DNA from: a virus
Virus record (IMG/VR): IMGVR_UViG_3300033143_002031
Location: 64,001-128,000 of that record
Strand: one strand, 5' to 3'
DNA length: 64,000 bases
In this document: piece by piece, positions 3,821 through 61,854 of the stretch
How the letters are laid out: the number at the start of each line of letters is the position of its first letter
How positions within the stretch are numbered: the stretch's first letter is position 1
Notes under the pieces: model-generated
What the model was told of the DNA's origin: nothing
Database searches by the model: none
The model's input: only the letters and a program-made list of their open reading frames with translations
Made by a program: the position numbers and the translations under genes

Positions 3821-4212
3821 TGGGCGACGGGCGACATGAGGAAGACCCCTCGGAATTGGATTGGTCGATCTCATTTCCTCCGTGGGGGGTCGTGTTCGTC
3901 ATAGCCACAGCGATCATCTGCTTCACGGTCTACGAGATCGTGAAGCTCGTCGTGGGATAGGAGAAGGACGATGGACAAACTCCACCCATCCATGAGCGGC
4001 ATGGAGGATACGATCCTCCACCTACCCGTGCTCAAGATGAGGGCCGAGGTGAACCGGGGCTGGTGGAAGGTCGAGGTCCAGGTGGCGCGGATGGGGCCGT
4101 ACTACAGCGGGAAGAAGAAGGACCGAAGCTACTTCTCGGCCCTGGCCAAGGCGCTCGACGCAGCGATCAAGGAAACGACGCGCTACGGACATGGGTGGGA
4201 CGGCCAGGACTA

Positions 4213-4227
4213 GCGACCAATGGTCGC
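4213..4227. promoter_or_regulatory. palindrome GCGACCAATGGTCGC
   Basis: perfect 7-1-7 inverted repeat; other copies at 7748, 8066, 49122, 59242 and variants at 9221, 31645. Confidence 0.7.
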
Positions 4228-4737
4228 AAGGGACGGACGATGGGCCGGTGGATTTCACTCGACGCTGTTGAGAGGGAGGGCTGGTACGTGGCGAGGTACG
4301 ACACGCCCGAACAGCCCTACCGCGTGATCCGTGCACGAGTCGGGAAGGCGAGGTCGAGACGCTACAGTCACCGGGCTCCGATCGAGGTGTGGTCGGTGCC
4401 GATAGACGAGATGGGAAGCGAGGGGGTGGACGATGGAAAACTCTGATCCGGTGGCTGATGCCAACGTCAGACACCTGGAAGGGTGGGTGAGAGCAATGGA
4501 CGATTCTGCTGAGTTCAAGGCCGCACGACGGACGATGGCGAAGCATCTGCGAGAGGATGAGGGTCTGAGGCAGACCTACGAGGCCAACGTCGCGATGCTG
4601 CTTCACGATCGGCACGGCATCACCGACCACGACAAGCGCAACGCGGCGGCCAAGGACATCTTGCATCTGGTCTTCGAGTCATGAGCAACAAAGACCACAT
4701 CCTTGTCACATCGAGAAGGCGGAAGCCATCTTGATTG

Positions 4738-4795: not shown

Positions 4796-5326
4796 ATGCA
4801 GGGGTTCGACGCTATCAAGATCAAGACGACTCGCCGTGAAGGCAACCGAGTCACTCTGACCATCGGCGGGGAGATCCTCGGGGGCAGCATCCGGGACCTC
4901 GGAGAGTTCGTCCGCCGCATGAAGCACCTGCACCGCAAGACGATGGGAGCAGCCCCACCGGCCGAGTTCTCTGAGCACGCTTTGTTCACCGAGACCGAGA
5001 GGCAGTCCCTTCGAGAGGTCGCGAAGTACAGGCCGCCAGACCCGACCAAGTTCACGCTGTTGATGTCCGCGCGGTCTGGAAAGATGGTAAAGGATCGCCA
5101 GTACAAGACCTTCAAGGCTGCGGAAACGGCACTGAGGAAAGCGATCAAGCGCGACCTCATGACCAGCAAGAATGACCTCTACCGCGTCCAACTGTGGTCC
5201 CCCGAGAAGCCAGGTCCGCAGACCAGGGTCGCCTCGTACAGCACGGACTATCGGCCCACATCGAGCAGCGTGTGGTACAAGCGCGACGAGCACGGCCATA
5301 AGACGATGTTCAAGGTCTACTCGTGA
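4796..5326 (+). CDS. hypothetical protein with internal LFTxxxRxxLRE motif
   Basis: GGAGG RBS; contains ALFTETERQSLRE. Confidence 0.7.
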   Translation: MQGFDAIKIKTTRREGNRVTLTIGGEILGGSIRDLGEFVRRMKHLHRKTMGAAPPAEFSEHALFTETERQSLREVAKYRPPDPTKFTLLMSARSGKMVKDRQYKTFKAAETALRKAIKRDLMTSKNDLYRVQLWSPEKPGPQTRVASYSTDYRPTSSSVWYKRDEHGHKTMFKVYS

Positions 5327-5760: not shown

Positions 5761-6785
5761 GGAAAACTCTCTTCACGAGGTCCAAGAGGCGAACCCTGAA
5801 GGAAGAGGCGGCCGGCGTCCCCCGTGCGATCGACATCATGGGGCAGTCCAAGGGGCTCTCCTACAAGGGGGCAACCATCGGCCGCATCCCGAACGCCTAC
5901 GTGGTCTACGCCACCAAGACGGACGGGGAGAAGACCGAGGTCGCCCGGTACTACTTCCAGGACGACAAGGCACGGGCGAAGCGCCACGCGAAGTGGGATG
6001 CCGAGAGCACCCTGAAGTCCCTGAAGCGCACTCTCGGTCTGTCCGAGGCGACCTATGAGGTGGATGCGAAAGCTCGGGCCGAGGCCAACCGTATCTGGGA
6101 CTCGATCATCTCCTACGTGAGGGGCCTCGACGGGGACTATGATTCGGTGGTCTGGACCCGCGACGGCATGATGACGATCTACCCGGTGCACACCAAGGTC
6201 CCCTACGGCATGAAGGTGTACCTTGGGCCACGGGGGATGACATCGGGCTACGGGACCGGCTCGCAGGGTAACGTCCTGGTCATCGGCAGCGTACTGTTGC
6301 ACCCGAAGGACACGACGTACCTCGACACTCGCATCACGTCCGCCTCGCTCAGGCATACGTTCGTCCACGAGTACGTTCACCACCTCGATCACATGCGTCG
6401 AGGAAAACTCCCGGACCGGCACGCCATGAGGGCTGCTCACGCTGGTGACATCGCGGGCTACCTCCGCACGCCCGAGGAGTTCAACGCCTGGTATCAGGAA
6501 ACGGCGCAGGCGGCAGAGGACAGCATCGCCGGAAAGATCAAGGTCATCGAGAGGTTCCGCTCGGTGGGCAAGGACGCGCTCGTCGTGAAGGTGGTGGCAG
6601 CCCTCCATCGGGACGTTGCCTCGTTCCCCGCGTTCCTGAAGTTCGTGGAGAAGCACAACGAGGCCGGGGACACCCTCGCGGTGCTGAAGGGCTCGAAGTG
6701 GGAGCGGAAGTGGCTCAAGCGGATGCACACGCTCTACCGGGGCCTGAAGCCGAAGGTGATGTCCATGTCGGCGGGGTCCAAGTGA
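5757..6785 (+). CDS. putative zincin-like metallopeptidase with shared N-terminal tag
   Basis: starts MRKTLFTRSKRRTLKE; HEYVH (HExxH) with a downstream EFNA. Confidence 0.6.
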   Translation: MRKTLFTRSKRRTLKEEAAGVPRAIDIMGQSKGLSYKGATIGRIPNAYVVYATKTDGEKTEVARYYFQDDKARAKRHAKWDAESTLKSLKRTLGLSEATYEVDAKARAEANRIWDSIISYVRGLDGDYDSVVWTRDGMMTIYPVHTKVPYGMKVYLGPRGMTSGYGTGSQGNVLVIGSVLLHPKDTTYLDTRITSASLRHTFVHEYVHHLDHMRRGKLPDRHAMRAAHAGDIAGYLRTPEEFNAWYQETAQAAEDSIAGKIKVIERFRSVGKDALVVKVVAALHRDVASFPAFLKFVEKHNEAGDTLAVLKGSKWERKWLKRMHTLYRGLKPKVMSMSAGSK

Positions 6786-25488: not shown

Positions 25489-25563
25489 TGGTGACCTGGA
25501 CGGGACTCGAACCCGCGTTTCCCGGCTTGAAAGGCCGGAGTCCTTCCTGTAGACGACCAGGCC
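25489..25563 (-). tRNA. tRNA-Glu(TTC)
   Basis: anticodon arm CCGGC CTTTCAA GCCGG; TTCGA T-loop; CCA. Confidence 0.92.
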
Positions 25564-25565
25564 GA

Positions 25566-25640
25566 GGGAGCCCCCGGGCGGAATCGAACCGCCTCCTCCG
25601 GAGTACGAAACCGGCACGCCACCTTTTGCGCCTCGGGGGC
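25566..25640 (-). tRNA. tRNA-Thr(CGT)
   Basis: acceptor GCCCCCG/CGGGGGC, U73; loop TTCGTAC. Confidence 0.75.
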
Positions 25641-25641
25641 C

Positions 25642-25717
25642 TGGAGCCCACGTCGGGAGTCGAACCCAAAAACTCCTGCTTACAAGGCAGGCGCTCCGCC
25701 ACCGGAGCCACGCGGGC
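25642..25717 (-). tRNA. tRNA-Thr(TGT)
   Basis: CCTGC CTTGTAA GCAGG; CCA. Confidence 0.92.
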
Positions 25718-25742
25718 AGGCTGCGACGATCGAGCATCTTCG

Positions 25743-25816
25743 TAGTGACTCTGAGGGGAATCGAACCCCCATTGCCGGATTGAGAGTCCGGTCTCCTACC
25801 GTTAGAGGACAGAGCC
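25743..25816 (-). tRNA. tRNA-Glu(CTC)
   Basis: CCGGA CTCTCAA TCCGG. Confidence 0.9.
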
Positions 25817-25936
25817 GAGCGGCATCCCCCTTGTACCTAGCAAAGGGGGCGTGCCCACACCCCGAAAGGGGCTCGGTCCAACGACCGATGAGACGCAGCT
25901 AGGAGCGCCGTGCGCGCACGAGAGGCCGAAGCCCCA

Positions 25937-26011
25937 CGGTGCCGATCACGGGAGTCGAACCCGTCTCTCCAGGATGGCGACCTGGCGTCTTCCCACGTAG
26001 ACTTGATCGGC
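25937..26011 (-). tRNA. tRNA-Gly(GCC)
   Basis: CCAGG TCGCCAT CCTGG (C33). Confidence 0.8.
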
Positions 26012-26012
26012 A

Positions 26013-26100
26013 TGGCGGCGAGCGGAGGTCTTGATCCCCACGCCTTGTGAGCGCGCACCGATTAGCAGCCGGGCTCGGGCTCCTGCCCAATTCACTCGCC
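26013..26100 (-). tRNA. tRNA-Ser(GCT), atypical D and T arms
   Basis: loop CTGCTAA; long variable arm; G73; CCA. Confidence 0.85.
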
Positions 26101-26106
26101 AAACTC

Positions 26107-26193
26107 TGGCGGCAGACGGAGGTCTTGATCCCCACTCCTCTCAGAGCGCACCGCTTTCGAGGCGGGCTCGGGCTCCTGCCCAATTCATCTGCC
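26107..26193 (-). tRNA. tRNA-Ser(CGA), atypical D and T arms
   Basis: loop CTCGAAA; long variable arm; CCA. Confidence 0.85.
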
Positions 26194-26277
26194 AGGTGCC
26201 CGCATGGCTGCACGGGCGACACCGCACCCCCACACGGGCGCGCTCCGGCCCCTCATACGGGATAATAGGGAGCGCAA

Positions 26278-26363
26278 CAGCGGCAGACGGGTGACTCGAA
26301 CGCCACGCCTCTCAGCGCGCACCGCCTTCCAAGCGGGCCTGGTCCCTGACCAGTTCGTCTGCC
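26278..26363 (-). tRNA. tRNA-Ser(GGA)
   Basis: loop TTGGAAG; long variable arm. Confidence 0.8.
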
Positions 26364-26365
26364 AG

Positions 26366-26451
26366 TGGCGGAGGGCGGAGGTCACGATCCCCACACCTCT
26401 CGGTGCCTGTCGCTTTCAAGACGATGGCGAGCCCTGCTCGCTTCGCCCTCC
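26366..26451 (-). tRNA. tRNA-Ser(TGA), atypical D and T arms
   Basis: loop CTTGAAA; CCA. Confidence 0.82.
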
Positions 26452-26620
26452 TCGCTTCAAGCTCCTCGATCCATCTCGCGAGGACGTGAACCCCAGCCAA
26501 GGCATGGTCTGGAGGGATACGTGTGTCGCGATTCCAGTTACGGCAGATGGATTCGAGAGCGATCTTGGCTCGTCTGATGTCGTCTATCTCAGGAGGCATC
26601 CTGAGACCGGCAGTATATCA

Positions 26621-26694
26621 CGGTCGGGCACCGGGGAGTCGAACCCCGCGCCTCCGGTCCCCCAGACCGGCGTCTCACCCCGAGACTAGTGCCC
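26621..26694 (-). tRNA. tRNA-Pro(GGG)-like, 6-nt anticodon loop
   Basis: acceptor CGGGCAC/GTGCCCG, A73; CCGGT CTGGGG ACCGG. Confidence 0.7.
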
Positions 26695-26731
26695 GGTGTG
26701 CCCCCTCCGAAGAGGGGACGAGAAAACTCGA

Positions 26732-27295
26732 TCAGTCGGACTCCAGAGCCCCGTGCCAGTAGACCCACGAAGCCCACTGGTCTGGCAAGGAATCACTCGC
26801 GTCGATGTGGAGAGCGACGACCGGCAGCGAGCGCGGCTTCACGGGCGTCCTCTTCAGGCGCATCCCCGCTTGCTGCGGCGTCCGGTCCCGCTTCCGATCA
26901 TTGCATGGGTAGCAGGCGGTGACGATGTTCTCCCAGACCGTCTTGCCGCCCCTCGACCTCGGTGTTACATGGTCGTAGTTGAGCTTACGGGTGGACAGCC
27001 TCTTCCCGCAGTACTGGCAGGTCCAGTTGTCCCGCGTCAGCACGTTCATGCGCGAGAACCGAACCGCCTTCTTGCGCGCGACCGCCCGCAGGAGCCGGAT
27101 GACGGCCGGCATCTTCAGCACGAACGTCCAGCCGTACTCCTTCGCCCGATCTGCCTGATCGGGGGTCATGAGGGCCTCATCGTAGCTCTCTACGACTTCG
27201 GCCTTGTGTTGGAAGAGCAACGAGACGGCCCGTTGCCAGGACACGATGCGGTGGGGTTGGTACCCCAGGTCCAGGACCAAGCATTGGCTAGACAT
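26732..27295 (-). CDS. HNH endonuclease (McrA-like)
   Basis: RDNWTCQYCG, DHVTPRSRGG, NIVTACYPCNDRK; AAGGAGG RBS. Confidence 0.92.
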   Translation of the reverse strand: MSSQCLVLDLGYQPHRIVSWQRAVSLLFQHKAEVVESYDEALMTPDQADRAKEYGWTFVLKMPAVIRLLRAVARKKAVRFSRMNVLTRDNWTCQYCGKRLSTRKLNYDHVTPRSRGGKTVWENIVTACYPCNDRKRDRTPQQAGMRLKRTPVKPRSLPVVALHIDASDSLPDQWASWVYWHGALESD

Positions 27296-27330
27296 GACCG
27301 CCTCCTTTCTTGGTGCGAAAACTCTACCAG

Positions 27331-27413
27331 TGCGAGCGGGGGGAGTCGAACCCCCATGACCTCGCGGCCGGCGGGTTTTGAACCCGCTGCGTCTACCATT
27401 TCACCACGCTCGC
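27331..27413 (-). tRNA. tRNA-Leu(CAA)
   Basis: GCGGG TTCAAAA CCCGC; long variable arm. Confidence 0.92.
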
Positions 27414-27419
27414 GCGGAG

Positions 27420-27503
27420 TGCCCGCTGCGGGACTCGAACCCGCACGCCCGCACGGGGCGCCCGGGTTTAGGCCGGGTGCGTCTACCGTTTCACCAAGCG
27501 GGC
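27420..27503 (-). tRNA. tRNA-Leu(TAA)
   Basis: CCCGG CCTAAAC CCGGG (C33). Confidence 0.85.
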
Positions 27504-27505
27504 AA

Positions 27506-27592
27506 CGGTGCTGCGGACAGGAGTCGAACCTGCACGACCTCTCGGCCACTGGCCCCTCAAGCCAGCGCGTCTACCAATTTCACCACCGCAGC
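27506..27592 (-). tRNA. tRNA-Leu(GAG)
   Basis: CTGGC TTGAGGG GCCAG. Confidence 0.92.
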
Positions 27593-27630
27593 AGGCACAA
27601 AACACAACTTTCAAAGTTATGTTTTGACAT

Positions 27631-27716
27631 CGGTGCCAGGGAGAGGAGTCGAACCTCCACGACCTTTCGGCCACTCGGGTCTGAGCCGAGCGCGTCTACC
27701 ATTTCACCACCCTGGC
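27631..27716 (-). tRNA. tRNA-Leu(CAG)
   Basis: CTCGG CTCAGAC CCGAG. Confidence 0.92.
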
Positions 27717-27717
27717 A

Positions 27718-27791
27718 TGGTGGGCGATGAGGGAGTTGAACCCCCGACTCTGGTGTGTGGGACCAGCATCTTTCCGTTCGACCAATCGCCC
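27718..27791 (-). tRNA. tRNA-Val(CAC)
   Basis: CTGGT CCCACAC ACCAG (C33); A73; CCA. Confidence 0.8.
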
Positions 27792-27800
27792 AGAAATCTC

Positions 27801-27877
27801 TGGTCGGGCAGAAGGGATTTGAACCCCCGACCTCCGCGTCCCGAACGCGGCGCGCTACCAGGCTGCGCTACTGCCCG
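27801..27877 (-). tRNA. tRNA-Pro(CGG)
   Basis: CCGCG TTCGGGA CGCGG; CCA. Confidence 0.93.
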
Positions 27878-27960
27878 AATGAGGGGCCGACCGCACACTC
27901 GCTTTGCCCAGGCCGTGAAGCCTCCATCCTCCTACCGGGTCAGGCCAGCCCGACGCCCCT

Positions 27961-28032
27961 CGGTCGCACGGGAGAGACTTGAACTCTCGCGGTCACGGAT
28001 ATGAGCCGTGCCTCCCACCTTGGGACCGTGCG
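27961..28032 (-). tRNA. tRNA-Met(CAT), elongator-type (or Ile2)
   Basis: CACGG CTCATAT CCGTG; fully paired acceptor stem. Confidence 0.75.
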
Positions 28033-28109
28033 GAAGCGGGGGGAGGATTTGAACCTCCGATCTTTTGGTTATGAGCCAAATGGGGACGACCAGACTCCCC
28101 TACCCCGCA
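28033..28109 (-). tRNA. tRNA-Met(CAT), initiator-like
   Basis: 1:72 mismatch, GCGGGG/CCCCGC acceptor, TTCAAAT T-loop; only two G-C pairs next to the anticodon loop. Confidence 0.75.
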
Positions 28110-28185
28110 GGAGCCCTTGGCGAGACTCGAACTCGCAACTCCCACCTTCGGAGGGTGGTGCCCGTTCCAATCGGGCCGCAAGGGC
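28110..28185 (-). tRNA. tRNA-Arg(CCG)
   Basis: CCACC CTCCGAA GGTGG. Confidence 0.88.
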
Positions 28186-28201
28186 ATGGTAAACTCTGGG
28201 T

Positions 28202-28348
28202 ATGGCAAAACGTCAGTACGAGAAGCCGACCTTCAAGCACGTCAAGGGGTTCGCCTTCATCATGCGCTGCACCCCGTGCCCTGATTGCAGGAACGGTGTG
28301 ACCTGCCATCGCTGTAGTTGCTGCCACGGCTGCCACGGCTGCCACTAG
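28202..28348 (+). CDS. 48-aa Cys/His-rich peptide
   Basis: MAKRQYEKPTFKHVKGFAFIMRCTPCPDCRNGVTCHRCSCCHGCHGCH*; fills the spacer between two tRNA-Arg genes; below the ORF-track cutoff; no clear SD. Confidence 0.6.
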   Translation: MAKRQYEKPTFKHVKGFAFIMRCTPCPDCRNGVTCHRCSCCHGCHGCH

Positions 28349-28420
28349 CCTCCCCACGAGGACTCGAACCTCGATCTCAAGATCCGTAATCTTGCGTGAT
28401 GTCCATTTCACTATGGGGAG
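28349..28420 (-). tRNA. tRNA-Arg(ACG)
   Basis: CAAGA TTACGGA TCTTG. Confidence 0.88.
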
Positions 28421-28422
28421 AG

Positions 28423-28494
28423 ACCAGCCGGCGGGACTCGAACCCGCGATGCACGGGAGTAGAAGTCCCGCTCCCCTCCAGTGGGGTCGGCTGG
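28423..28494 (-). tRNA. tRNA-Arg(TCT)
   Basis: CGGGA CTTCTAC TCCCG. Confidence 0.82.
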
Positions 28495-28495
28495 A

Positions 28496-28570
28496 CGGAG
28501 GCCCCGGGGGGAGTCGGACCCACCGATTCCTGGTTTGCAGCCAGGCGTCTTTCCGTTTGACTACGGGGCC
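28496..28570 (-). tRNA. tRNA-Cys(GCA)
   Basis: CCTGG CTGCAAA CCAGG; U73. Confidence 0.88.
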
Positions 28571-28626
28571 AGTAGCTCGTCCGGCTTCACCGGCACAGAG
28601 CGGACGGCGGGACTCGAACCCGCCTC

Positions 28627-28700
28627 TGGTGCAGGTAGGGGGAGTCGAACCCCCGATTCGAGGGTGGAAACCTCGCGTCTTTCCGTTAGACCACACCTGC
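28627..28700 (-). tRNA. tRNA-Gly(TCC)
   Basis: CGAGG TTTCCAC CCTCG; CCA. Confidence 0.9.
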
Positions 28701-28706
28701 GAAACA

Positions 28707-28779
28707 GCGATCTGTGCGGGACTCGGACCCGCTTCTCCGGGCTCGGCCCGGTGTTCGTCCTATGAACTACATCGACCGC
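28707..28779 (-). ncRNA. tRNA-like RNA with a 5-nt anticodon loop
   Basis: T-arm GCGGG TCCGAGT CCCGC; stem CCGGG CCGAG CCCGG; GCGGTC/GATCGC closing stem. Confidence 0.5.
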
Positions 28780-28845
28780 TGCCTACTCGCGCCCGCTCTT
28801 CTCAGGGTACTGGTCGACGCTTCCCCTGAGCCTCCTGGGAGCTTT

Positions 28846-28921
28846 CGGAGCCCCGAGCGGGGATCGAACCCGCCATCTCCGCCATACCAAGGCGGCGAAT
28901 CACCACTGATTCTTTCGGGGC
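28846..28921 (-). tRNA. tRNA-Thr(GGT)
   Basis: CCGCC TTGGTAT GGCGG; U73. Confidence 0.88.
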
Positions 28922-28975
28922 AAGCGCCCCCTACCCGCTGCAAGGCTAGGAGGGAATCGAACCCTCGTAGGGGAC

Positions 28976-29049
28976 TGTTGGACACGGAGGGAATCGAACC
29001 CTCATCTCCGGCTTGCAAGGCCGGCGTCTTCCCGTTTGACGACGCGCCC
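28976..29049 (-). tRNA. tRNA-Ala(TGC)
   Basis: CCGGC CTTGCAA GCCGG; G3:U70. Confidence 0.9.
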
Positions 29050-29124
29050 GTGTCCAGGTGAGGCAAGCTCGGGAATCAGGTTGCGCTACCCTCGTCCCAA
29101 CGCAAGGCGCGTCCTCACCCAGAG

Positions 29125-29197
29125 TGGATCGTGCGAGAGTTGAACTCGCGACCTCCTGCATGCGAAGCAGGTGCTCTCCCAACTGAGCTAACGACCC
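29125..29197 (-). tRNA. tRNA-Ala(CGC)
   Basis: CCTGC TTCGCAT GCAGG; G3:U70. Confidence 0.92.
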
Positions 29198-29200
29198 AAA

Positions 29201-29310
29201 CTGCCGGCGCTCTTACCACTTGAGCTACGAAGGCCGTTTTAGGGCCTCCGACAGGACTCGAACCTGCATCTCCGGACTCGCCGACGCTCTACCACTTGAG
29301 CTACGGACAC
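29201..29310 (-). ncRNA. tRNA-and-a-half (pseudo-tRNA plus a duplicated 5' half)
   Basis: two near-identical D-arms, one T-arm, no intact anticodon loop. Confidence 0.55.
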
Positions 29311-29352
29311 CAATTGGCGACCGACGGGACTCGAACCCGCACCTTCGGCTAG

Positions 29353-29425
29353 TGGAACACCGGGGAATCGAACCCCGAACCTCCTGGCTGCCAGCCAGAC
29401 GCTCTCCCAGTTGAGCTAGTGCCCC
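29353..29425 (-). tRNA. tRNA-Ala(GGC)
   Basis: TCTGG CTGGCAG CCAGG; G3:U70. Confidence 0.92.
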
Positions 29426-29426
29426 A

Positions 29427-29501
29427 TGGTGGGCGTGGAGGGATTTGAACCCCCGATCTTCTGCGCGTCGAGCAGACGTCTTGCCACTTGACCACACGCC
29501 C
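29427..29501 (-). tRNA. tRNA-Val(GAC)
   Basis: TCTGC TCGACGC GCAGA (C33, G37); CCA. Confidence 0.85.
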
Positions 29502-29510
29502 GAAAACTTC

Positions 29511-29585
29511 TGGTACCCCGAGTGGGAATCGAACCCACGACCTGAGCCTTATAAGGACCCGTCTCTGCCACTGAGTTACCGGGGC
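29511..29585 (-). tRNA. tRNA-Ile(TAT)
   Basis: GGGTC CTTATAA GGCTC; A73; CCA. Confidence 0.85.
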
Positions 29586-29630
29586 TCCGACTGCTCGGAG
29601 CCATGTATTCGTTCCATCGGAACCTCCTTC

Positions 29631-29705
29631 TGGTGGGGCGAGAGGGACTCGAACCCCCGTCAACCGATTCATCAGACCGGCGCTCTGCCACTGAACTACC
29701 GCCCC
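29631..29705 (-). tRNA. tRNA-Ile(GAT)
   Basis: CCGGT CTGATGA ATCGG; CCA. Confidence 0.88.
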
Positions 29706-29706
29706 A

Positions 29707-29782
29707 TGGAGCCCTCGGCGGGAGTCGAACCCGCAACCTCCGGAGTAGGAATCCGACGCACGTCCAGCCGTGCTACGAGGGC
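29707..29782 (-). tRNA. tRNA-Arg(CCT)
   Basis: TCGGA TTCCTAC TCCGG; CCA. Confidence 0.9.
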
Positions 29783-29783
29783 A

Positions 29784-29861
29784 TGGGGTGATCGACGGGA
29801 CTCGAACCCGCTAGGGCCGGGATCACAACCCGGTGCCGCGACCGCTTTGGCTTCGACCACC
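29784..29861 (-). tRNA. tRNA-His(GTG)
   Basis: CCGGG TTGTGAT CCCGG; G-1:C73; CCA. Confidence 0.9.
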
Positions 29862-29868
29862 ATACTTC

Positions 29869-30017
29869 TGGCGACTCTCCCAGGAATCGAACCCGGGCCT
29901 CCGAGACAAGGCTCCTCTCATGTACCCGCTTTGCCCGGCGGTGCGAGGATCGTTGCTTGGAATCGCAGGGGACAACCCACGACCCGCTCGGTGTTCTGCC
30001 ACTACCACTATCGAGCC
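29869..30017 (-). ncRNA. tRNA-like RNA with an 81-nt structured insert replacing the anticodon loop
   Basis: D-arm-like 5' part, CCGAG/CTCGG stem, canonical T-arm, G73, CCA. Confidence 0.6.
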
Positions 30018-30020
30018 GTA

Positions 30021-30105
30021 TGGCTCCCCAGGGAATCGAACCCCTTGCGCGCCACCACACATAATAGCGCGATCGGGTTACAGCCGATCGTGTGGAAAGG
30101 GAGCC
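30021..30105 (-). tRNA. D-armless tRNA-Tyr(GTA)-like RNA
   Basis: GATCGG CTGTAAC CCGATC; long variable arm; TTCGATT T-loop; 9-nt linker instead of a D-arm. Confidence 0.65.
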
Positions 30106-30112
30106 AAACTCA

Positions 30113-30190
30113 AGGTCCGCGTGGACGGATTTGAACCGCCGTTATGCCGGCTCCCAAAGCCGGTGTCTGACCAGACTAGACGACACGCGG
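30113..30190 (-). tRNA. tRNA-Pro(TGG)
   Basis: CCGGC TTTGGGA GCCGG. Confidence 0.9.
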
Positions 30191-30191
30191 A

Positions 30192-30267
30192 TGGTGGGGA
30201 GCCTCGGAATTGAACCGAGATTCGTGGATCTTCACTCCACTGTCCTACCGGGTTAGACGAACTCCCC
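30192..30267 (-). tRNA. tRNA-Phe(GAA)
   Basis: GTGGA GTGAAGA TCCAC; CCA. Confidence 0.88.
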
Positions 30268-30268
30268 A

Positions 30269-30342
30269 TGGCGGGACCGACCGGACTCGAACCGGCTTTA
30301 CCAGCGTGACAGGCTGGCGCCTTTCCTAATGGCTACGATCCC
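30269..30342 (-). tRNA. tRNA-Asp(GTC)
   Basis: CCAGC CTGTCAC GCTGG; G73; CCA. Confidence 0.92.
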
Positions 30343-30345
30343 AAT

Positions 30346-30541
30346 GCACCTCCGGCCAGGGCGTATCGTGGCGCGGGACGCTTCATGCGTCCCTCGGAGG
30401 CGCGGCGGGCGACCTGAGAATCGAACTCAGCGGACAGCCGGTTTTGGAGACCAGCCCGCGTACCCTGCGCGTCACCCAAAGGACACCTCCGGCCAGGGCG
30501 TATCGTGGCGCGGGAAACTCTCTCGTCTCCCTCGGAGATGC
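30346..30541 (-). repeat. two copies of a ~58-nt three-way-junction element (30346..30403, 30483..30541)
   Basis: 32 identical nt (30347..30378 = 30484..30515); the variable hairpin is paired in both copies. Confidence 0.8.
30403..30477 (-). tRNA. tRNA-Trp(CCA)
   Basis: CTGGT CTCCAAA ACCGG; G73. Confidence 0.85.
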
Positions 30542-30615
30542 AGCACCGACCCTTTCGGGATAGTGCTCCGCCCGTTGACGTTGCTCCCTTTCGGGTCTGA
30601 CGCCTCGGTCTCGGT

Positions 30616-30688
30616 TGGTACGGCAGGAGGGAATCGAACCCTCACACATCGGCTTCAAAGGCCGAGTGGCTACCCTGAGCACCACCGT
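30616..30688 (-). tRNA. tRNA-Gln(TTG)
   Basis: TCGGC CTTTGAA GCCGA; CCA. Confidence 0.85.
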
Positions 30689-30689
30689 A

Positions 30690-30768
30690 TGGCTGGGGTG
30701 GAGGGAATCGAACCCCCACGATGACCCGGAGTCAGAGTCCGGCGCTCTACCAGTTGAGCTACACCCCA
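30690..30768 (-). tRNA. tRNA-Gln(CTG)
   Basis: CCGGA CTCTGAC TCCGG; G73; CCA. Confidence 0.92.
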
Positions 30769-30787
30769 ATAGCGAGGAGATTGACAA

Positions 30788-30862
30788 TGGGGGGTCCGGG
30801 GGGACTCGAACCCCCACCTGACAGAGTAAGAATCTGCTACGCTCCCATTACGCCACGGACCC
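30788..30862 (-). tRNA. tRNA-Lys(CTT)
   Basis: GCAGA TTCTTAC TCTGT; CCA. Confidence 0.88.
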
Positions 30863-30865
30863 ACA

Positions 30866-30942
30866 GGGCTGGCCAGGCTGGAGTCGAACCAGCAACCTTC
30901 CGGGTAACAGCCGGATGCTTCTTCCTACTGAGCTTCTGACCA
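30866..30942 (-). tRNA. tRNA-Asn(GTT)
   Basis: TCCGG CTGTTAC CCGGA. Confidence 0.9.
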
Positions 30943-30943
30943 A

Positions 30944-31019
30944 TGGCGGGCCAGGTTGGAGTCGAACCAACAACCATCGGACTAACAATCCGCCGCTCTT
31001 CCATTAGAGCTACTGACCC
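30944..31019 (-). tRNA. tRNA-Asn(GTT), second copy
   Basis: GCGGA TTGTTAG TCCGA; CCA. Confidence 0.88.
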
Positions 31020-31121
31020 ATGATGACCCCGGAGCCTGGGTGAGCCCCGAGGTCGAAGATGCTCGATTGTCACAGACCGAACAGCCGTCGCTGGGAGGTT
31101 CGCGAGAGAACCTCCTTCCAT

Positions 31122-31197
31122 CGGTGGGGGCAACAGGACTTGAACCTGCTCAATCCGGGGTAAAAGCCCGGGACCCGTCCAGTCGGGCGCTACCCCC
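31122..31197 (-). tRNA. tRNA-Lys(TTT)
   Basis: CCGGG CTTTTAC CCCGG; first tRNA of the array. Confidence 0.88.
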
Positions 31198-59508: not shown

Positions 59509-61854
59509 GTGGATGTGACAGTCACAGGGTGGGCGTGGTTGCCCAAGGCGGACCTGACGCCAGACCAGATCGTGAACATGGAGCGCATGCTCACGGTTCA
59601 CCCGCAGAAGATCGGGGACTACCCGGGCGACGAGCCCCTGCCGATCCACCTGTATGCGAACGAGAGTGACCGCTTCGGCGTCCCCCGCGAGTTCTTTTTC
59701 AGCAATCGGCGTGCGACTCACAACATCGACCTCCAGGTCACAGAAGGATCTAAGGACTGGTGGCCGGCGGAGTTTGTCGGCCTCCTTCGGACGGAGCAGA
59801 AGACCGCTCTGAACGAGGTGGTGGCGATGTTCCGGGCCGGGCGGATGGGCGGGATCATCCAAGCCAAGCCGGGCTGGGGGAAGTGCCTGGGTATCGGAAC
59901 TCCCGTGCTCATGTTCGATGGAGCGATAAAGCCTGTCGAGGACATTCAAGATGGCGATCTTCTCATGGGGCCGGACAGCCGACCCCGCCGCGTTTTGTCT
60001 ACGACACGCGGCACCGGACCGCTATACGAGATCGTTCCGTTGCGTGGAGAGTCCTGGGTGTGCAACGACGCTCACATCTTGACTCTGGTTCACTCCCTGA
60101 CAGGAGAAGTACAGGATATTGAGGTGGGGGAGTACCTGAAGCTATCGAAGACGGAGCGGCATTACCTCAAGCAGTTTGCTCCGGAGCAAGGGGTCGACTT
60201 TCTCTCAGCCGAGCCACTTCTGCTGGACCCGTACTTTTTGGGGGTGTGGTTCGGGGACGGTACGAAGGGTGCGGACGAGGGGGTCTTGAGGAAGGTAGCG
60301 GTCACTAAGCGGGACGAAGAGATCAAGAAGCTGTGCGAGGATGTGGCGTCGAGGTACGGTCTCCATGTCCGCGTGGAAACTTCTGGAGGTACGCGGTGCC
60401 CTACCTACCATCTCACAACTGGCAGGACGGGAGGAGGCCGGAACGCGCTTCTCGATCTTTTGCGTCGTGTCGTGGGGGACGCATCTGAGGTCCCTCGTCA
60501 GTATCTCACCGCGTCCAGGTCGGATCGAAGGGCACTGCTCGCGGGTTTTTTGGACTCGGACGGCCACCTCAATAACGGTTATTTCGACATCGTGCAGAAG
60601 CGGCGCTCTTATGCGGAGGCCGTCATGTTCCTCGCCCGATCTCTTGGGTTTCGGGCGAGGGTGTCGGAGAAAATTGTACACGGGGAGGTCTACTGGCGCA
60701 TGGGTCTGTCCGGCGATTTCTCTACACTTCCCCTGCGTGTGTCCCGAAAGAAGGCCCCTCCCCGGCGACAGAAAAAGGTGCCTACTCGGACAGGGTTCGA
60801 TGTTCGTTTTGCGGGGACCGGGGCGTATGCGGGGTTTACGTTGGACGGGGACGGGCGGTTCCTCCTCGGAGATTTCACCGTGACTCACAACACGGTCGTG
60901 GCGCTGGCTATCGCTGCCGAGCTAGGTGTGCCTACCCTCGTCGTAGTCCACAAGGAATTTCTGATGGACCAGTGGACGGAGCGGATCGAGAAGTTCCTTC
61001 CGGCGGCGAAGATAGGTCGCGTCCAGCAAGACACCTGCGACTTCCGGGGCAAGACTGTGGTCATGGGCATGGTTCACTCCCTTGGAGGAGAGCAGCCCTA
61101 CCCTGAAGACCTGTGGGAGTGGCCGGGTTTGGTCATCGTGGACGAGGTGCACCGTATCGGAGCCCGCACGTGGGCTCCTGTTCCTCCGAGGTTCCAAGCC
61201 AAGTACCGCCTCGGATTCACGGCGACGCCCCGGCGCAAGGATGGCGCCGACGACGTGTTCTGGCAGCACATCGGTCCGATTATCTTCGCGGGGAAAGAGG
61301 AGCGATTGAAGCCCGTCGTCAAGCGAGTGTGGACCAAGTTCAAACTCGTGAAGACGGACCGCTTCAATCCGAATCTGGCCCCGAAGGCGCTCATCACTCG
61401 GTTCCTGGTCAAGAGCCGCTACCGCAACGATCTGATCGCGGAGCAACTCGTCTCAGCCTTGGAGGCGGGGAGGAAGATCCTTGTGCTGAGTGAGCGCTTG
61501 CAGCACCTACAGGACATGGAGTCGCAGCTTCGGAATATGTGGCCAGCGGTGGCCGGAGACGTTTCGATCGGTCAGTACGTCGGAGGTCGAACCAAGGTCC
61601 AACTCGAACGGTCGGCGCAGGCTAAGGTCATCTTCGCCACGTCTCAGTACGCGGCCGAGGGTCTGGACATCCCGGCGCTGGACACGCTGTTCCTGACCAC
61701 GCCAATGAGCGACGTGGAGCAGGCGGTGGGTCGTATTCAGAGGCCGCACCCGGACAAGAAAGATCCTATCGTGGTGGACTTCCGCGATGACTCGATTCCT
61801 ATGTTCGAGGCGATGGGTAGGAAACGAGAGAAGTTCTACACGAGGATAGCTTGA
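59509..61854 (+). CDS. SF2 helicase (Res III/UvsW-like) with intein
   Basis: PGWGK|T, DEVH, FTATP, FATSQ, QAVGRIQR. Confidence 0.92.
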   Translation: MDVTVTGWAWLPKADLTPDQIVNMERMLTVHPQKIGDYPGDEPLPIHLYANESDRFGVPREFFFSNRRATHNIDLQVTEGSKDWWPAEFVGLLRTEQKTALNEVVAMFRAGRMGGIIQAKPGWGKCLGIGTPVLMFDGAIKPVEDIQDGDLLMGPDSRPRRVLSTTRGTGPLYEIVPLRGESWVCNDAHILTLVHSLTGEVQDIEVGEYLKLSKTERHYLKQFAPEQGVDFLSAEPLLLDPYFLGVWFGDGTKGADEGVLRKVAVTKRDEEIKKLCEDVASRYGLHVRVETSGGTRCPTYHLTTGRTGGGRNALLDLLRRVVGDASEVPRQYLTASRSDRRALLAGFLDSDGHLNNGYFDIVQKRRSYAEAVMFLARSLGFRARVSEKIVHGEVYWRMGLSGDFSTLPLRVSRKKAPPRRQKKVPTRTGFDVRFAGTGAYAGFTLDGDGRFLLGDFTVTHNTVVALAIAAELGVPTLVVVHKEFLMDQWTERIEKFLPAAKIGRVQQDTCDFRGKTVVMGMVHSLGGEQPYPEDLWEWPGLVIVDEVHRIGARTWAPVPPRFQAKYRLGFTATPRRKDGADDVFWQHIGPIIFAGKEERLKPVVKRVWTKFKLVKTDRFNPNLAPKALITRFLVKSRYRNDLIAEQLVSALEAGRKILVLSERLQHLQDMESQLRNMWPAVAGDVSIGQYVGGRTKVQLERSAQAKVIFATSQYAAEGLDIPALDTLFLTTPMSDVEQAVGRIQRPHPDKKDPIVVDFRDDSIPMFEAMGRKREKFYTRIA
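59884..60891 (+). mobile_element. intein with LAGLIDADG homing endonuclease (336 aa)
   Basis: starts CLGIGTPV, ends FTVTHN before T; blocks YFLGVWFGDG and LLAGFLDSDG; inserted in Walker A. Confidence 0.95.

What the first reader, a model, noticed from the sequence alone, without database searches (positions are those of the whole stretch)
29869..30017. tRNA scaffold with an 81-nt structured insert in place of the anticodon loop
Seen: a 149-nt unit with a partial acceptor stem, D-like arm, perfect CCGAG/CTCGG stem, canonical T-arm, G73 and an encoded CCA. Between the stem strands are 81 nt containing a 7-bp helix (GGGTCGT/ACGATCC) and a CCGC/GCGG hairpin. It is too short for tmRNA or a group I intron and lacks G3:U70. 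Inference: a tRNA-scaffolded ncRNA (decoy, aptamer or guide released by RNase P and 3' processing) or an unusual intron-containing tRNA.
Basis: partly seen in the sequence, partly recalled or inferred. Interest (0 to 1): 0.7.

Follow-up and report, generated by a model that had tools for sequence, protein, structure and literature searches.

The report
Chimeric non-decoding tRNA-shaped RNA gene
A 149-base gene in a phage's tRNA cluster has real tRNA ends but 81 extra bases where the anticodon loop should be, so it cannot decode; it is a strain-lineage-specific patchwork in a recombination hotspot, possibly kept as a tRNA look-alike RNA and possibly just a scar.

Summary
On the minus strand of 29869-30017 there is a canonical T-arm, G73-CCA, a 5-bp acceptor stem followed by a tandem G·A/A·G, a D-like arm with G18G19, and a perfect CCGAG/CUCGG stem enclosing 81 nt. 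ARAGORN and Rfam do not call it. It cannot be a decoder. No 7-nt loop with U33 can be formed, and a 94%-identical variant from another metagenome changes the only candidate anticodon.

It is not tmRNA and not an intron-bearing tRNA. It also fails tests for the YrlA-type Y RNAs that fill relatives' arrays beside a Ro60-like gene; this phage has neither. Earlier scan notes describe tRNA-Y chimeras in other phages, but this unit is not one by my tests.

The Tyr-His slot it occupies is hypervariable, from 5-13 nt to 209 nt across nine related arrays, and the unit occurs only in the window's immediate lineage. The insert resembles tRNA fragments.

All nine listed substitutions in the variant fall in RNA 61-110. 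The scaffold is untouched, and one hairpin pair changed compensatorily.

Verdict: a young tRNA-derived chimera that is excised with its neighbours. About 45% that it is kept as a tRNA mimic, about 38% that it is a neutral scar. Modest interest.

The parts
29869..30017 (-). The whole 149-nt tRNA-shaped unit (RNA 1-149)
   Evidence: Identical copy in L018. A 94% variant on a contig of about 151 nt in run X1.
30011..30017 (-). Acceptor 5' strand GGCUCGA (RNA 1-7)
   Evidence: Pairs with 139-145: 5 terminal pairs plus a tandem G.A/A.G. Unchanged in X1.
29993..30008 (-). D-like arm (RNA 10-25), loop AGUGGCA with G18 G19 A21; stem only 2 of 4 pairs
   Evidence: Best match is the 5' half of the array's tRNA-Ile(GAU), about 3.6 sd above other tRNAs.
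29987..29991 (-). CCGAG, 5' strand of the anticodon-stem-like helix (RNA 27-31)
   Evidence: 5/5 Watson-Crick with CUCGG. The same helix is present in the L037 slot element.
29906..29986 (-). 81-nt insert in place of the anticodon loop (RNA 32-112)
   Evidence: Not repeated elsewhere in the 185-kb genome. Absent from relatives' slots.
29960..29985 (-). Proximal, conserved part of the insert (RNA 33-58). GGGUCGU can pair either with 65-71 (7 bp) or, as GGGUCGUGGG, with CCUGCGAUUC (49-58; 10 bp, 4 of them G.U)
   Evidence: constrained fold. RNA 34-59 equals the variable loop plus T-arm of tRNA-Ile(UAU) interrupted by 8 nt. GGGUCGU/ACGAUCC equals the acceptor stem of tRNA-Ala(CGC).
29908..29957 (-). 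Fast-changing part of the insert (RNA 61-110); holds all 9 listed differences in the X1 variant
29926..29941 (-). Hairpin CCGC-CGGGCAAA-GCGG (RNA 77-92)
   Evidence: G79-C90 becomes A79-U90 in X1. A possible counterpart, GCCGU-CGUGGAAA-ACGGU, exists in L037.
29901..29905 (-). CUCGG, 3' strand of the anticodon-stem-like helix (RNA 113-117)
29880..29896 (-). Canonical T-arm CCGGG UUCGAUU CCUGG (RNA 122-138)
   Evidence: The 3' half is most like a tRNA-Thr(GGU) 3' half, 27/34 identical.
29869..29879 (-). Acceptor 3' strand GAGAGUC, discriminator G73, encoded CCA (RNA 139-149)
30021..30105 (-). Upstream neighbour: D-armless tRNA-Tyr(GUA), 3 nt before the unit
   Evidence: conserved with covariation in relatives.
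29784..29860 (-). Downstream neighbour: tRNA-His(GUG), 8 nt after the unit

Best explanation
The unit is a young, lineage-specific tRNA-derived chimera. Recombination among tRNA-type modules in a hypervariable slot between tRNA-Tyr and tRNA-His joined a tRNA 5' half and a tRNA 3' half that still pair with each other. About 80 nt of tRNA-like debris sits where the anticodon loop was.

It is co-transcribed with the 39-tRNA array. Cutting its neighbours out, by RNase P at tRNA-His and 3' trimming at tRNA-Tyr, necessarily releases it as an RNA of about 149 nt. Its acceptor/T-arm minihelix probably also makes it an RNase P substrate in its own right. The released RNA has a tRNA elbow, an acceptor end and CCA, but no anticodon.

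It does not decode. I think it slightly more likely than not that the tRNA-shaped body is being kept by selection as a tRNA mimic. Such a mimic would be a decoy or sponge for a factor that reads the elbow or acceptor end and not the anticodon, or a processing 'punctuation' needed by its two neighbours.

Shown: the anatomy, the non-chance scaffold, the restricted distribution, the inability to decode, and the substitution pattern. Inferred: transcription, processing, stability, and any function.
For: - Anatomy confirmed.
- The scaffold complementarity is reached by only 0.44% of halves taken from different tRNAs.
- The unit is flush between two tRNAs in one strand-consistent array.
- In the X1 variant, from a different study, all 9 listed substitutions lie in RNA 61-110 and none lie in the 68 scaffold positions or in 32-60. 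The probability of all 9 falling in the insert is (81/149)^9 = 0.004. Neighbouring stretches differ by 2.5-13%.
- Within the variable part, G79-C90 became A79-U90, and G38-C66 became G38.U66, so both pairs are kept.
- The 9 substitutions show no third-codon-position bias in any frame, so the constraint is not protein-coding (positions).
- The CCGAG/CUCGG helix recurs in the same slot of the distant relative L037.
- This phage group demonstrably uses tRNA-mimic RNAs packed between tRNAs.
- From general knowledge: a tandem 5'-GA-3'/3'-AG-5' mismatch is a stable non-canonical motif, so the acceptor helix may be continuous.
Against: - The unit is found only in the window's immediate lineage: L018 is identical, and X1 is 94% identical.
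- The slot is empty or filled differently in G001, L019, L022, L035, L036, L037, L063 and L067.
- The D-stem has 2 of 4 pairs and the acceptor stem has two non-Watson-Crick pairs.
- The cloverleaf-type fold is 6 kcal/mol worse than the MFE, and the MFE is no better than shuffles.
- A recently formed pseudogene would inherit the CCA, the T-loop, G18G19 and matching halves without any selection.
- The X1 pattern rests on one contig and on a table that omits 463 rows, and a recombination patch of about 50 nt would mimic it.
- One compensatory pair among 9 substitutions has roughly a 4% chance expectation (my estimate).
- No expression data exist.
Confidence: 0.45

Rival explanations
1. It is a neutral recombination scar or pseudogene. 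Under this reading it is two partly deleted tandem tRNA genes (149 = about 72 + 77 nt), or one tRNA gene disrupted by inserted tRNA fragments. It is carried along because it sits inside an essential operon. Any RNA made is a by-product with no role.
For: - The slot is hypervariable, from 5-13 nt up to 209 nt across relatives.
- Homing-type HNH genes sit in and near these arrays. The T4 precedent of a homing endonuclease driving turnover in a tRNA cluster is in PMC2330249.
- The insert looks like tRNA parts in tRNA order. RNA 34-59 is the Ile(UAU) variable loop plus T-arm with an 8-nt interruption. ACGAUCC at 65-71 lies where a first tRNA's 3' acceptor strand would be and pairs 5/7 with RNA 1-7. 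CCGC/GCGG matches the Thr(GGU) anticodon stem.
- The D-stem and acceptor stem carry lesions.
- There is no thermodynamic signal.
- No tRNA finder or Rfam family accepts the unit.
Against: - There are zero listed changes in 99 nt (RNA 1-60 and 111-149) against 9 in the 50 nt between them, in a strain that differs by 2.5-13% elsewhere.
- Pairing is preserved at both helix positions that changed.
- The resemblances to tRNA fragments are individually near chance level (E about 1-20; nulls).
Confidence: 0.38
2. It is a relic or divergent member of the Ro60/Y-RNA system of this phage group. Under this reading the CCGAG/CUCGG helix with the flanking CCUUGU is a decayed Ro60-docking handle, left over after the lineage lost its Ro60 gene, or still used with a host Ro60.
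For: - Relatives carry a Ro60-like gene inside the array (vWA_Ro60, 50.5 and 29.5 bits against a cut-off of 27.7) and 4-6 YrlA-type RNAs of 113-153 nt between tRNAs.
- The closest relative with a filled slot, G001, has a Y unit there whose cargo is a tRNA-like module.
- The unit shares the handle's CCGA/UCGG core, CCUUGU before the 3' strand, GUGGG at the right spacing, and a GGGUACAU fragment.
Against: - A covariance model of 14 family members finds no handle in the window; the unit region scores 11.8 bits or less, on the T-arm only.
- Profile HMMs of each handle half give no hit at the unit even at E<=100.
- The defining GNCGAAN0-1G motif (PMC4201824) is absent: the unit has ACCGAG.
- X1 mutates CCUUGU to UCGAGU.
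- CTTGTC occurs at the chance rate in the array.
- The 185-kb record has no Ro60.
- Rfam YrlA gives no hit on the unit.
Confidence: 0.08
3. It is an intron-containing tRNA that is spliced to a decoder of about 76 nt.
For: The insert sits exactly at the anticodon-loop position, and a canonical-length tRNA remains if about 74 nt are removed.
Against: - Every way of leaving 7 nt gives G or C at position 33. The best option is CCCUUGU, with anticodon CUU, C33 and G37.
- X1 changes that to CUCGAGU, so no anticodon is conserved.
- 81 nt is far below group I intron size, and no ribozyme or intron family matches at E<=10.
- ARAGORN in intron mode finds nothing.
- All 20 amino acids are already covered by the array.
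Confidence: 0.03
4. It is a miniature tmRNA-like molecule, with a tRNA-like domain plus the short reading frame GCA...UGA.
For: It has a tRNA-like acceptor/T-arm with CCA, and an internal frame that starts with GCA and ends with UGA (read).
Against: - The terminal stem has no G3.U70.
- The peptide changes at 3 of 12 residues in X1 (T>M, P>Q, A>V), with 1 synonymous change.
- The start of the frame lies inside a helix.
- ARAGORN tmRNA mode and Rfam give no hit on the unit.
Confidence: 0.01

Closest known systems
YrlA-type bacterial and phage Y RNAs (Rfam RF02553; Chen et al. 2014, PMC4201824)
   Same: A non-decoding RNA of about 115-150 nt with a tRNA-mimicking T-arm, D-arm and acceptor module. 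In this phage group such RNAs are packed flush between tRNA genes. M. smegmatis YrlA is cut by RNase P and receives CCA.
   Different: YrlA is circularly permuted. Its acceptor-like stem is closed by a loop, and its free ends form the Ro60-binding handle carrying GNCGAAN0-1G. The unit has open acceptor ends with an encoded CCA, no handle by covariance-model or HMM tests, and no Ro60 gene in its genome.
tRNA gene fragments and pseudo-tRNAs created by recombination or mobile-element integration (van der Gulik et al. 2023, PMC9897764)
   Same: It is made of recognisable tRNA pieces, is rejected or scored low by tRNA finders, and lies at a site of genetic turnover.
   Different: Those cases are typically partial genes at integration sites or CRISPR spacers in cellular genomes. 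This unit keeps two mutually complementary halves, a CCA and a scaffold that is unchanged in a diverged strain.
Stable non-tRNA RNAs encoded in the phage T4 tRNA cluster ('species 1 and 2' RNAs); from my own knowledge, not retrieved in the library
   Same: Small stable RNAs of roughly 120-140 nt and unknown function, co-transcribed and processed with phage tRNAs.
   Different: There is no sequence relationship, the host group is different, and I could not check their structures here.
tmRNA
   Same: A tRNA-like acceptor/T-arm domain with extra RNA between the two halves.
   Different: The unit has no G3.U70, no conserved tag frame and no pseudoknots, and is about 200 nt shorter. It is not detected by ARAGORN or Rfam.

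Membership tests
Canonical tRNA (RF00005) | Score at or above the family threshold, or a call by a tRNA finder | tested here: not met
   No RF00005 hit on the unit even at E<=10. ARAGORN is negative with default, intron and -ps80 settings.
Canonical tRNA (RF00005) | 7-nt anticodon loop with U33 and a stable anticodon | tested here: not met
   81 nt lie between the stem strands, no U33 option exists, and the X1 variant alters the candidate anticodon.
Canonical tRNA (RF00005) | T-arm with a UUCRANY loop, G18G19 in the D-loop, a 7-bp acceptor stem, and a discriminator plus CCA | tested here: inconclusive
   The T-arm, G18G19, G73 and CCA are present. The acceptor stem has 5 standard pairs plus a tandem G.A, and the D-stem has 2 of 4 pairs.
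Intron-containing tRNA (bacterial group I type) | Group I catalytic core (about 200 nt or more) in the anticodon loop | tested here: not met
   The insert is 81 nt, and no intron or ribozyme family matches at E<=10.
Intron-containing tRNA (archaeal bulge-helix-bulge type) | Bulge-helix-bulge motif at both exon-intron junctions | not tested
   I did not search formally for this motif. The missing conserved anticodon argues against any splicing model.
tmRNA | G3.U70 in the terminal stem, a conserved tag reading frame, and detection by ARAGORN or RF00023 | tested here: not met
   The terminal stem has G2.U71 and C3-G70. The frame changes at 3 of 12 residues in X1. There are no hits on the unit.
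YrlA / Y RNA (RF02553) | Ro60-binding handle with the GNCGAAN0-1G motif (PMC4201824) | tested here: not met
   The unit has ACCGAG and GCCGGGCAAAG instead. nhmmer with 5' and 3' handle profiles from 15 related units gives no hit at E<=100. Covariance model R1 finds no handle match.
YrlA / Y RNA (RF02553) | Permuted tRNA-like module (T-arm, closed acceptor-like hairpin, D-arm) between the handle strands | tested here: not met
   The unit has native tRNA order with open acceptor ends. The relatives' units have the permuted order.
YrlA / Y RNA (RF02553) | A Ro60/Rsr gene in the same genome, usually adjacent | tested here: not met
   The 184.7-kb record has no TROVE match and no homologue of the relatives' Ro60-like protein. 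The record is estimated 88% complete, so absence is not absolute.

The most novel reading that the evidence does not exclude
A phage lineage that lost the Ro60/Y-RNA system of its relatives maintains a different kind of tRNA mimic. This would be a full-topology tRNA body (elbow, acceptor, CCA) whose anticodon arm is replaced by an extension of about 80 nt, with a conserved proximal hairpin and a fast-evolving distal module. It would be released by the tRNA-processing machinery and would act as a decoy or adaptor for a host or phage factor that reads tRNA shape and not the anticodon.
Probability: 0.25. Interest if true: 0.6.

Novelty: new variant of a known kind. Interest (0 to 1): 0.35.

Why it matters
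If the tRNA-shaped body is really under selection, this would be a natural example of a full tRNA scaffold displaying a foreign arm, made and trimmed by the ordinary tRNA machinery. That is the same design used in the laboratory to stabilise RNAs. It would add a second, Ro60-independent kind of tRNA mimic to large phages' tRNA arrays.

If it is a scar, it still documents how quickly one slot of a phage tRNA array is rebuilt from tRNA and Y-RNA modules. It also warns against reading every tRNA-like oddity as a new RNA class.

The context that emerged is of more general interest than the unit itself: Ro60-like genes and multiple Y RNAs inside the arrays of related phages, and a conserved D-armless tRNA-Tyr.

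Tried and rejected
- Searches for the unit or its surroundings in GenBank phages by megablast and blastn: no match.
- Exact insert pattern in IMG/VR: no match.
- Proteins flanking the array as anchors in IMG/VR: no relatives.
- A tRNA-His anchor in IMG/VR and JGI metagenomes found only G001 and an identical copy, WOR8.
- A gapped pattern built from the stretch shared with L037 gave 22 IMG/VR hits, all chance and none in a comparable array slot.
- Sequencing runs: no RNA holder is listed, so expression is untested.
- X2-X4 contigs skip the slot (joint 29867>30183, letters between not known). I later read the same phage directly as L019-L021, where Tyr and His are 13 nt apart.
- Insert as a genomic repeat or mobile-element footprint: only chance 9-13-mers match elsewhere.
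- Global alignment of the window slot with the G001 slot: not better than other array segments (17% of segments score as high).
- Local alignment of the unit with the L037 element: not significant against array nulls (30% and 5.6%). The homology therefore rests on the shared slot and the shared helix only.
- Search for a parent tRNA of the scaffold: no clear parent.
- The weak mascRNA hit (20.3 bits, E=0.1) reflects a generic T-arm.
- An ARAGORN 'permuted tmRNA' at -ps80 spans real tRNAs and is spurious.
- The literature search for T4 stable RNAs did not retrieve a source.
- One P0024 look-up returned no DNA.

Full report
**Context.** The window is part of a 184.7-kb IMG/VR viral contig with about 63% G+C. 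Window positions 25489-31197 hold 39 ARAGORN-called tRNA genes, all on the minus strand, interrupted by one HNH endonuclease gene at 26732-27295. The finding lies in a 253-nt stretch (29861-30113) between tRNA-Pro(UGG) and tRNA-His(GUG) that no tool annotates. This stretch holds a D-armless tRNA-Tyr(GUA) at 30021-30105, then 3 nt, then the 149-nt unit, then 8 nt, then tRNA-His.

RNA position p corresponds to window coordinate 30018-p.
- Acceptor stem: 1-7 with 139-145. There are five terminal pairs including G2.U71, followed by G6.A67 and A7.G66.
- U8 A9, and a D-like arm with G18 G19 A21 but only two of four stem pairs.
- A26, then CCGAG (27-31) paired perfectly with CUCGG (113-117).
- A 4-nt variable loop, a canonical T-arm (122-138), G73 and CCA.
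- An 81-nt insert (32-112) containing GGGUCGU/ACGAUCC (33-39/65-71) and CCGC/GCGG (77-80/89-92).

ARAGORN does not call the unit, even in intron mode and at 80% thresholds. Rfam does not call it at gathering scores or at E<=10. The fold energy is no better than shuffled sequence (z = +0.34), and forcing the scaffold costs about 6 kcal/mol.

The scaffold is nevertheless not a chance pairing. Among 23,542 ordered pairs of different real tRNAs from four related arrays, only 0.44% combine at least 5 terminal acceptor pairs with a 5/5 anticodon stem, and most of those pairs are orthologues of the same tRNA. The two ends therefore either come from one tRNA or have been kept matched.

**What it is not.**
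- *Not a decoder or intron-containing tRNA.* No choice of 7 retained nucleotides gives U33. The best option (CCCUUGU) is altered to CUCGAGU in a closely related strain. The insert is far too small for a group I intron, and no ribozyme or intron family matches.
- *Not tmRNA.* The terminal stem has no G3.U70. The short GCA...UGA frame changes at three of twelve residues in the variant. There is no ARAGORN or Rfam hit.
- *Not a repeat or mobile-element footprint.* Nothing beyond chance 9-13-mers matches elsewhere in the genome.

**Relatives and the slot.** A DnaB-like protein and the array's HNH protein led to related phages. Their arrays are collinear with the window's, but the Tyr-His slot is strikingly variable:

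| Relative | Slot content |
|---|---|
| L063, L022, L019 | 5, 6 and 13 nt |
| L035, L036 | 52-nt hairpin element |
| L067 | 119-nt tRNA-like with an 8-bp acceptor stem, a GUA loop and a 43-nt variable region |
| L037/L039 | 127-nt element |
| Window | 160 nt (the unit plus spacers) |
| G001 | 209 nt: a second tRNA-His plus a Y-RNA unit wrapped around a tRNA-like cargo |

The unit itself was found only in L018, which is 100% identical and so the same phage population, and on a contig of about 151 nt in sediment run X1 from another study. It is therefore young or narrowly distributed.

The L037 element shares the same slot, the CCGAG...CUCGGAG helix, a UCGA..UAG start, and a stretch matching at 19 positions with three indels. 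However, the local alignment is not significant against array-wide nulls. I treat that homology as suggestive only.

**The Ro60/Y-RNA lead.** Relatives carry a Ro60-like gene inside the array, with vWA_Ro60 scoring 50.5 and 29.5 bits against a cut-off of 27.7. They also carry four to six RNAs of 113-153 nt packed between tRNAs that match Rfam YrlA below threshold (28-49 bits). These share an invariant handle: CGAAUGC, GGGAnUAC and CUUGUCG. Earlier scan notes describe tRNA-Y chimeras in other phages, so I tested this reading directly.

By eye the unit has the handle's CCGA/UCGG core, CCUUGU before its 3' strand, and GUGGG at the right spacing. The formal tests do not support membership:
- A covariance model built from 14 family members finds no handle anywhere in the window.
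- Profile HMMs of the two handle halves give no hit at the unit even at E<=100.
- The GNCGAAN0-1G motif that defines the family (PMC4201824) is absent.
- CTTGTC occurs at the chance rate in the array.
- The X1 strain mutates CCUUGU.
- The genome has no Ro60 homologue and no Y unit.

Membership is therefore rejected. A decayed relic cannot be excluded, and I give it about 8%.

**What the insert is made of.** The pieces resemble tRNA parts:
- RNA 5-29 is most like the 5' half of the array's tRNA-Ile(GAU), with the same AGUGGCAGA D-loop.
- RNA 34-59 reproduces the variable loop and T-arm of tRNA-Ile(UAU), GGUCGUGGGUU...CGAUUCC, with an 8-nt interruption.
- GGGUCGU/ACGAUCC is identical to the acceptor stem of tRNA-Ala(CGC).
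- RNA 114-149 is most like a tRNA-Thr(GGU) 3' half (27/34 identical), and CCGC/GCGG matches that tRNA's anticodon stem.

ACGAUCC also lies where the 3' acceptor strand of a first 72-nt tRNA would be, and it pairs 5/7 with RNA 1-7. The unit can therefore also be read as two collapsed tandem tRNA genes (72 + 77 nt). Each resemblance is weak on its own. Together they favour an origin by illegitimate recombination among array modules over a foreign aptamer. HNH-type genes in and beside these arrays, and the T4 SegB precedent (PMC2330249), give a plausible driver.

**Evidence for ongoing constraint.** The X1 contig differs from the window at nine listed positions: RNA 61, 66, 79, 81, 90, 102, 107, 109 and 110.
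- None lies in the 68 scaffold positions or in RNA 32-60. The probability that all nine fall in the insert is 0.004.
- The 50-nt stretch holding them is 18% diverged, whereas other X1 pieces differ from the window by 2.5-13% (table 8).
- G79-C90 became A79-U90, and G38-C66 became G38.U66, so pairing is kept at both helix positions that changed.
- The substitutions show no codon-position bias in any frame.

There are four caveats. The pattern rests on one contig. The table omits 463 lower-ranked rows. A short recombination patch would give the same picture. One compensatory pair among nine substitutions has roughly a 4% chance expectation.

**Mechanism.** The unit is flush between two tRNAs in one operon. 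Maturation of tRNA-Tyr's 3' end and RNase P cleavage at tRNA-His must therefore free an RNA of about 149-160 nt (inference). Its own acceptor/T-arm minihelix with G73-CCA is the kind of substrate RNase P and the CCA enzyme accept, as shown for the tRNA-like module of M. smegmatis YrlA (PMC4201824). The tandem G.A may keep the acceptor helix stacked (general knowledge).

The product would be a tRNA-shaped, non-decoding RNA with an extended arm. On the X1 pattern I lean slightly towards selection keeping the body, making it a tRNA mimic acting as a decoy, sponge or processing punctuation (0.45). The alternative, an inert by-product of a recent recombination scar, gets 0.38.

**Novelty and score.** This is a new variant of a known kind, namely tRNA-derived and tRNA-mimicking elements in phage tRNA arrays. 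It is lineage-restricted and has no demonstrated function. Interest is 0.35. The surrounding discoveries are recorded separately: Ro60-like genes with Y-RNA sets inside related arrays, a conserved D-armless tRNA-Tyr, and other long tRNA-like units in the same slot.

Noticed in passing
L019:6862-8463, L022:5670-7415, L035:4485-6101; Y units e.g. L019:8585-8737, L022:7518-7805, L014:1349-1484 (minus strand): Related phages carry a Ro60-like gene (vWA_Ro60 above cut-off) inside the tRNA array, plus 4-6 YrlA-type Y RNAs of 113-153 nt packed flush between tRNAs. These share the invariant handle CGAAUGC / GGGAnUAC / CUUGUCG. The window's phage has neither.
   Followed up: partly
window 30021-30105 (minus strand); L035:1786-1880, L037:~4170-4254, L063:~6555-6640, L067:~1062-1147: The D-armless tRNA-Tyr(GUA) is conserved in at least six related arrays, and the pairing between its D-replacement linker and its variable loop covaries: CCACAC/GUGUGG, CCACCU/AGGGUGG, CCCUG/CAGGG. 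It therefore looks like a real, functional odd tRNA. G001, L019 and L022 have an ARAGORN-callable Tyr instead.
   Followed up: partly
L014 ~4925-5056 (minus strand; G001 slot): A Y-RNA handle (GAGCCGAAUGC...GGGAUUACAU / CUCAC...CCUUGUCGGCUC) wraps a native-order tRNA-like cargo with a 4-6-nt 'anticodon' loop, which ARAGORN calls tRNA-???. The leader and trailer of a tRNA-like molecule thus form the Ro60-type handle.
   Followed up: partly
L067:1148-1270: A 119-nt tRNA-like gene after the D-armless Tyr. It has an 8-bp acceptor stem (GGAGGAGC/GCUCCUCC), an anticodon loop UUGUAAG (GUA), and a 43-nt variable region containing CGAAUGC.
   Followed up: no
window 28186-28347 (minus strand); L019:8967-9131: The gap of about 162 nt between tRNA-Arg(ACG) and tRNA-Arg(CCG) is kept at similar length in relatives and carries CTTGTC but no T-loop. 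It may be another non-tRNA RNA unit.
   Followed up: no
window 59509-61854 (+): A ResIII-type helicase gene interrupted by an intein (Hint plus LAGLIDADG homing endonuclease domains).
   Followed up: no
window 26732-27295 (minus strand): The HNH endonuclease gene inside the tRNA array has more than 1,300 homologues at E<=1e-20. Every homologue whose contig I fetched lies in a similar tRNA array, so it is a useful marker for this group of large phages.
   Followed up: partly
L036:6476-7474, L062:5428-6480, L035:2044-2580: Extra ORFs of 332-350 aa with unknown function, and an HNH_3 gene, are inserted next to the Tyr/His genes in some relatives. This fits the region being an insertion hotspot.
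   Followed up: no
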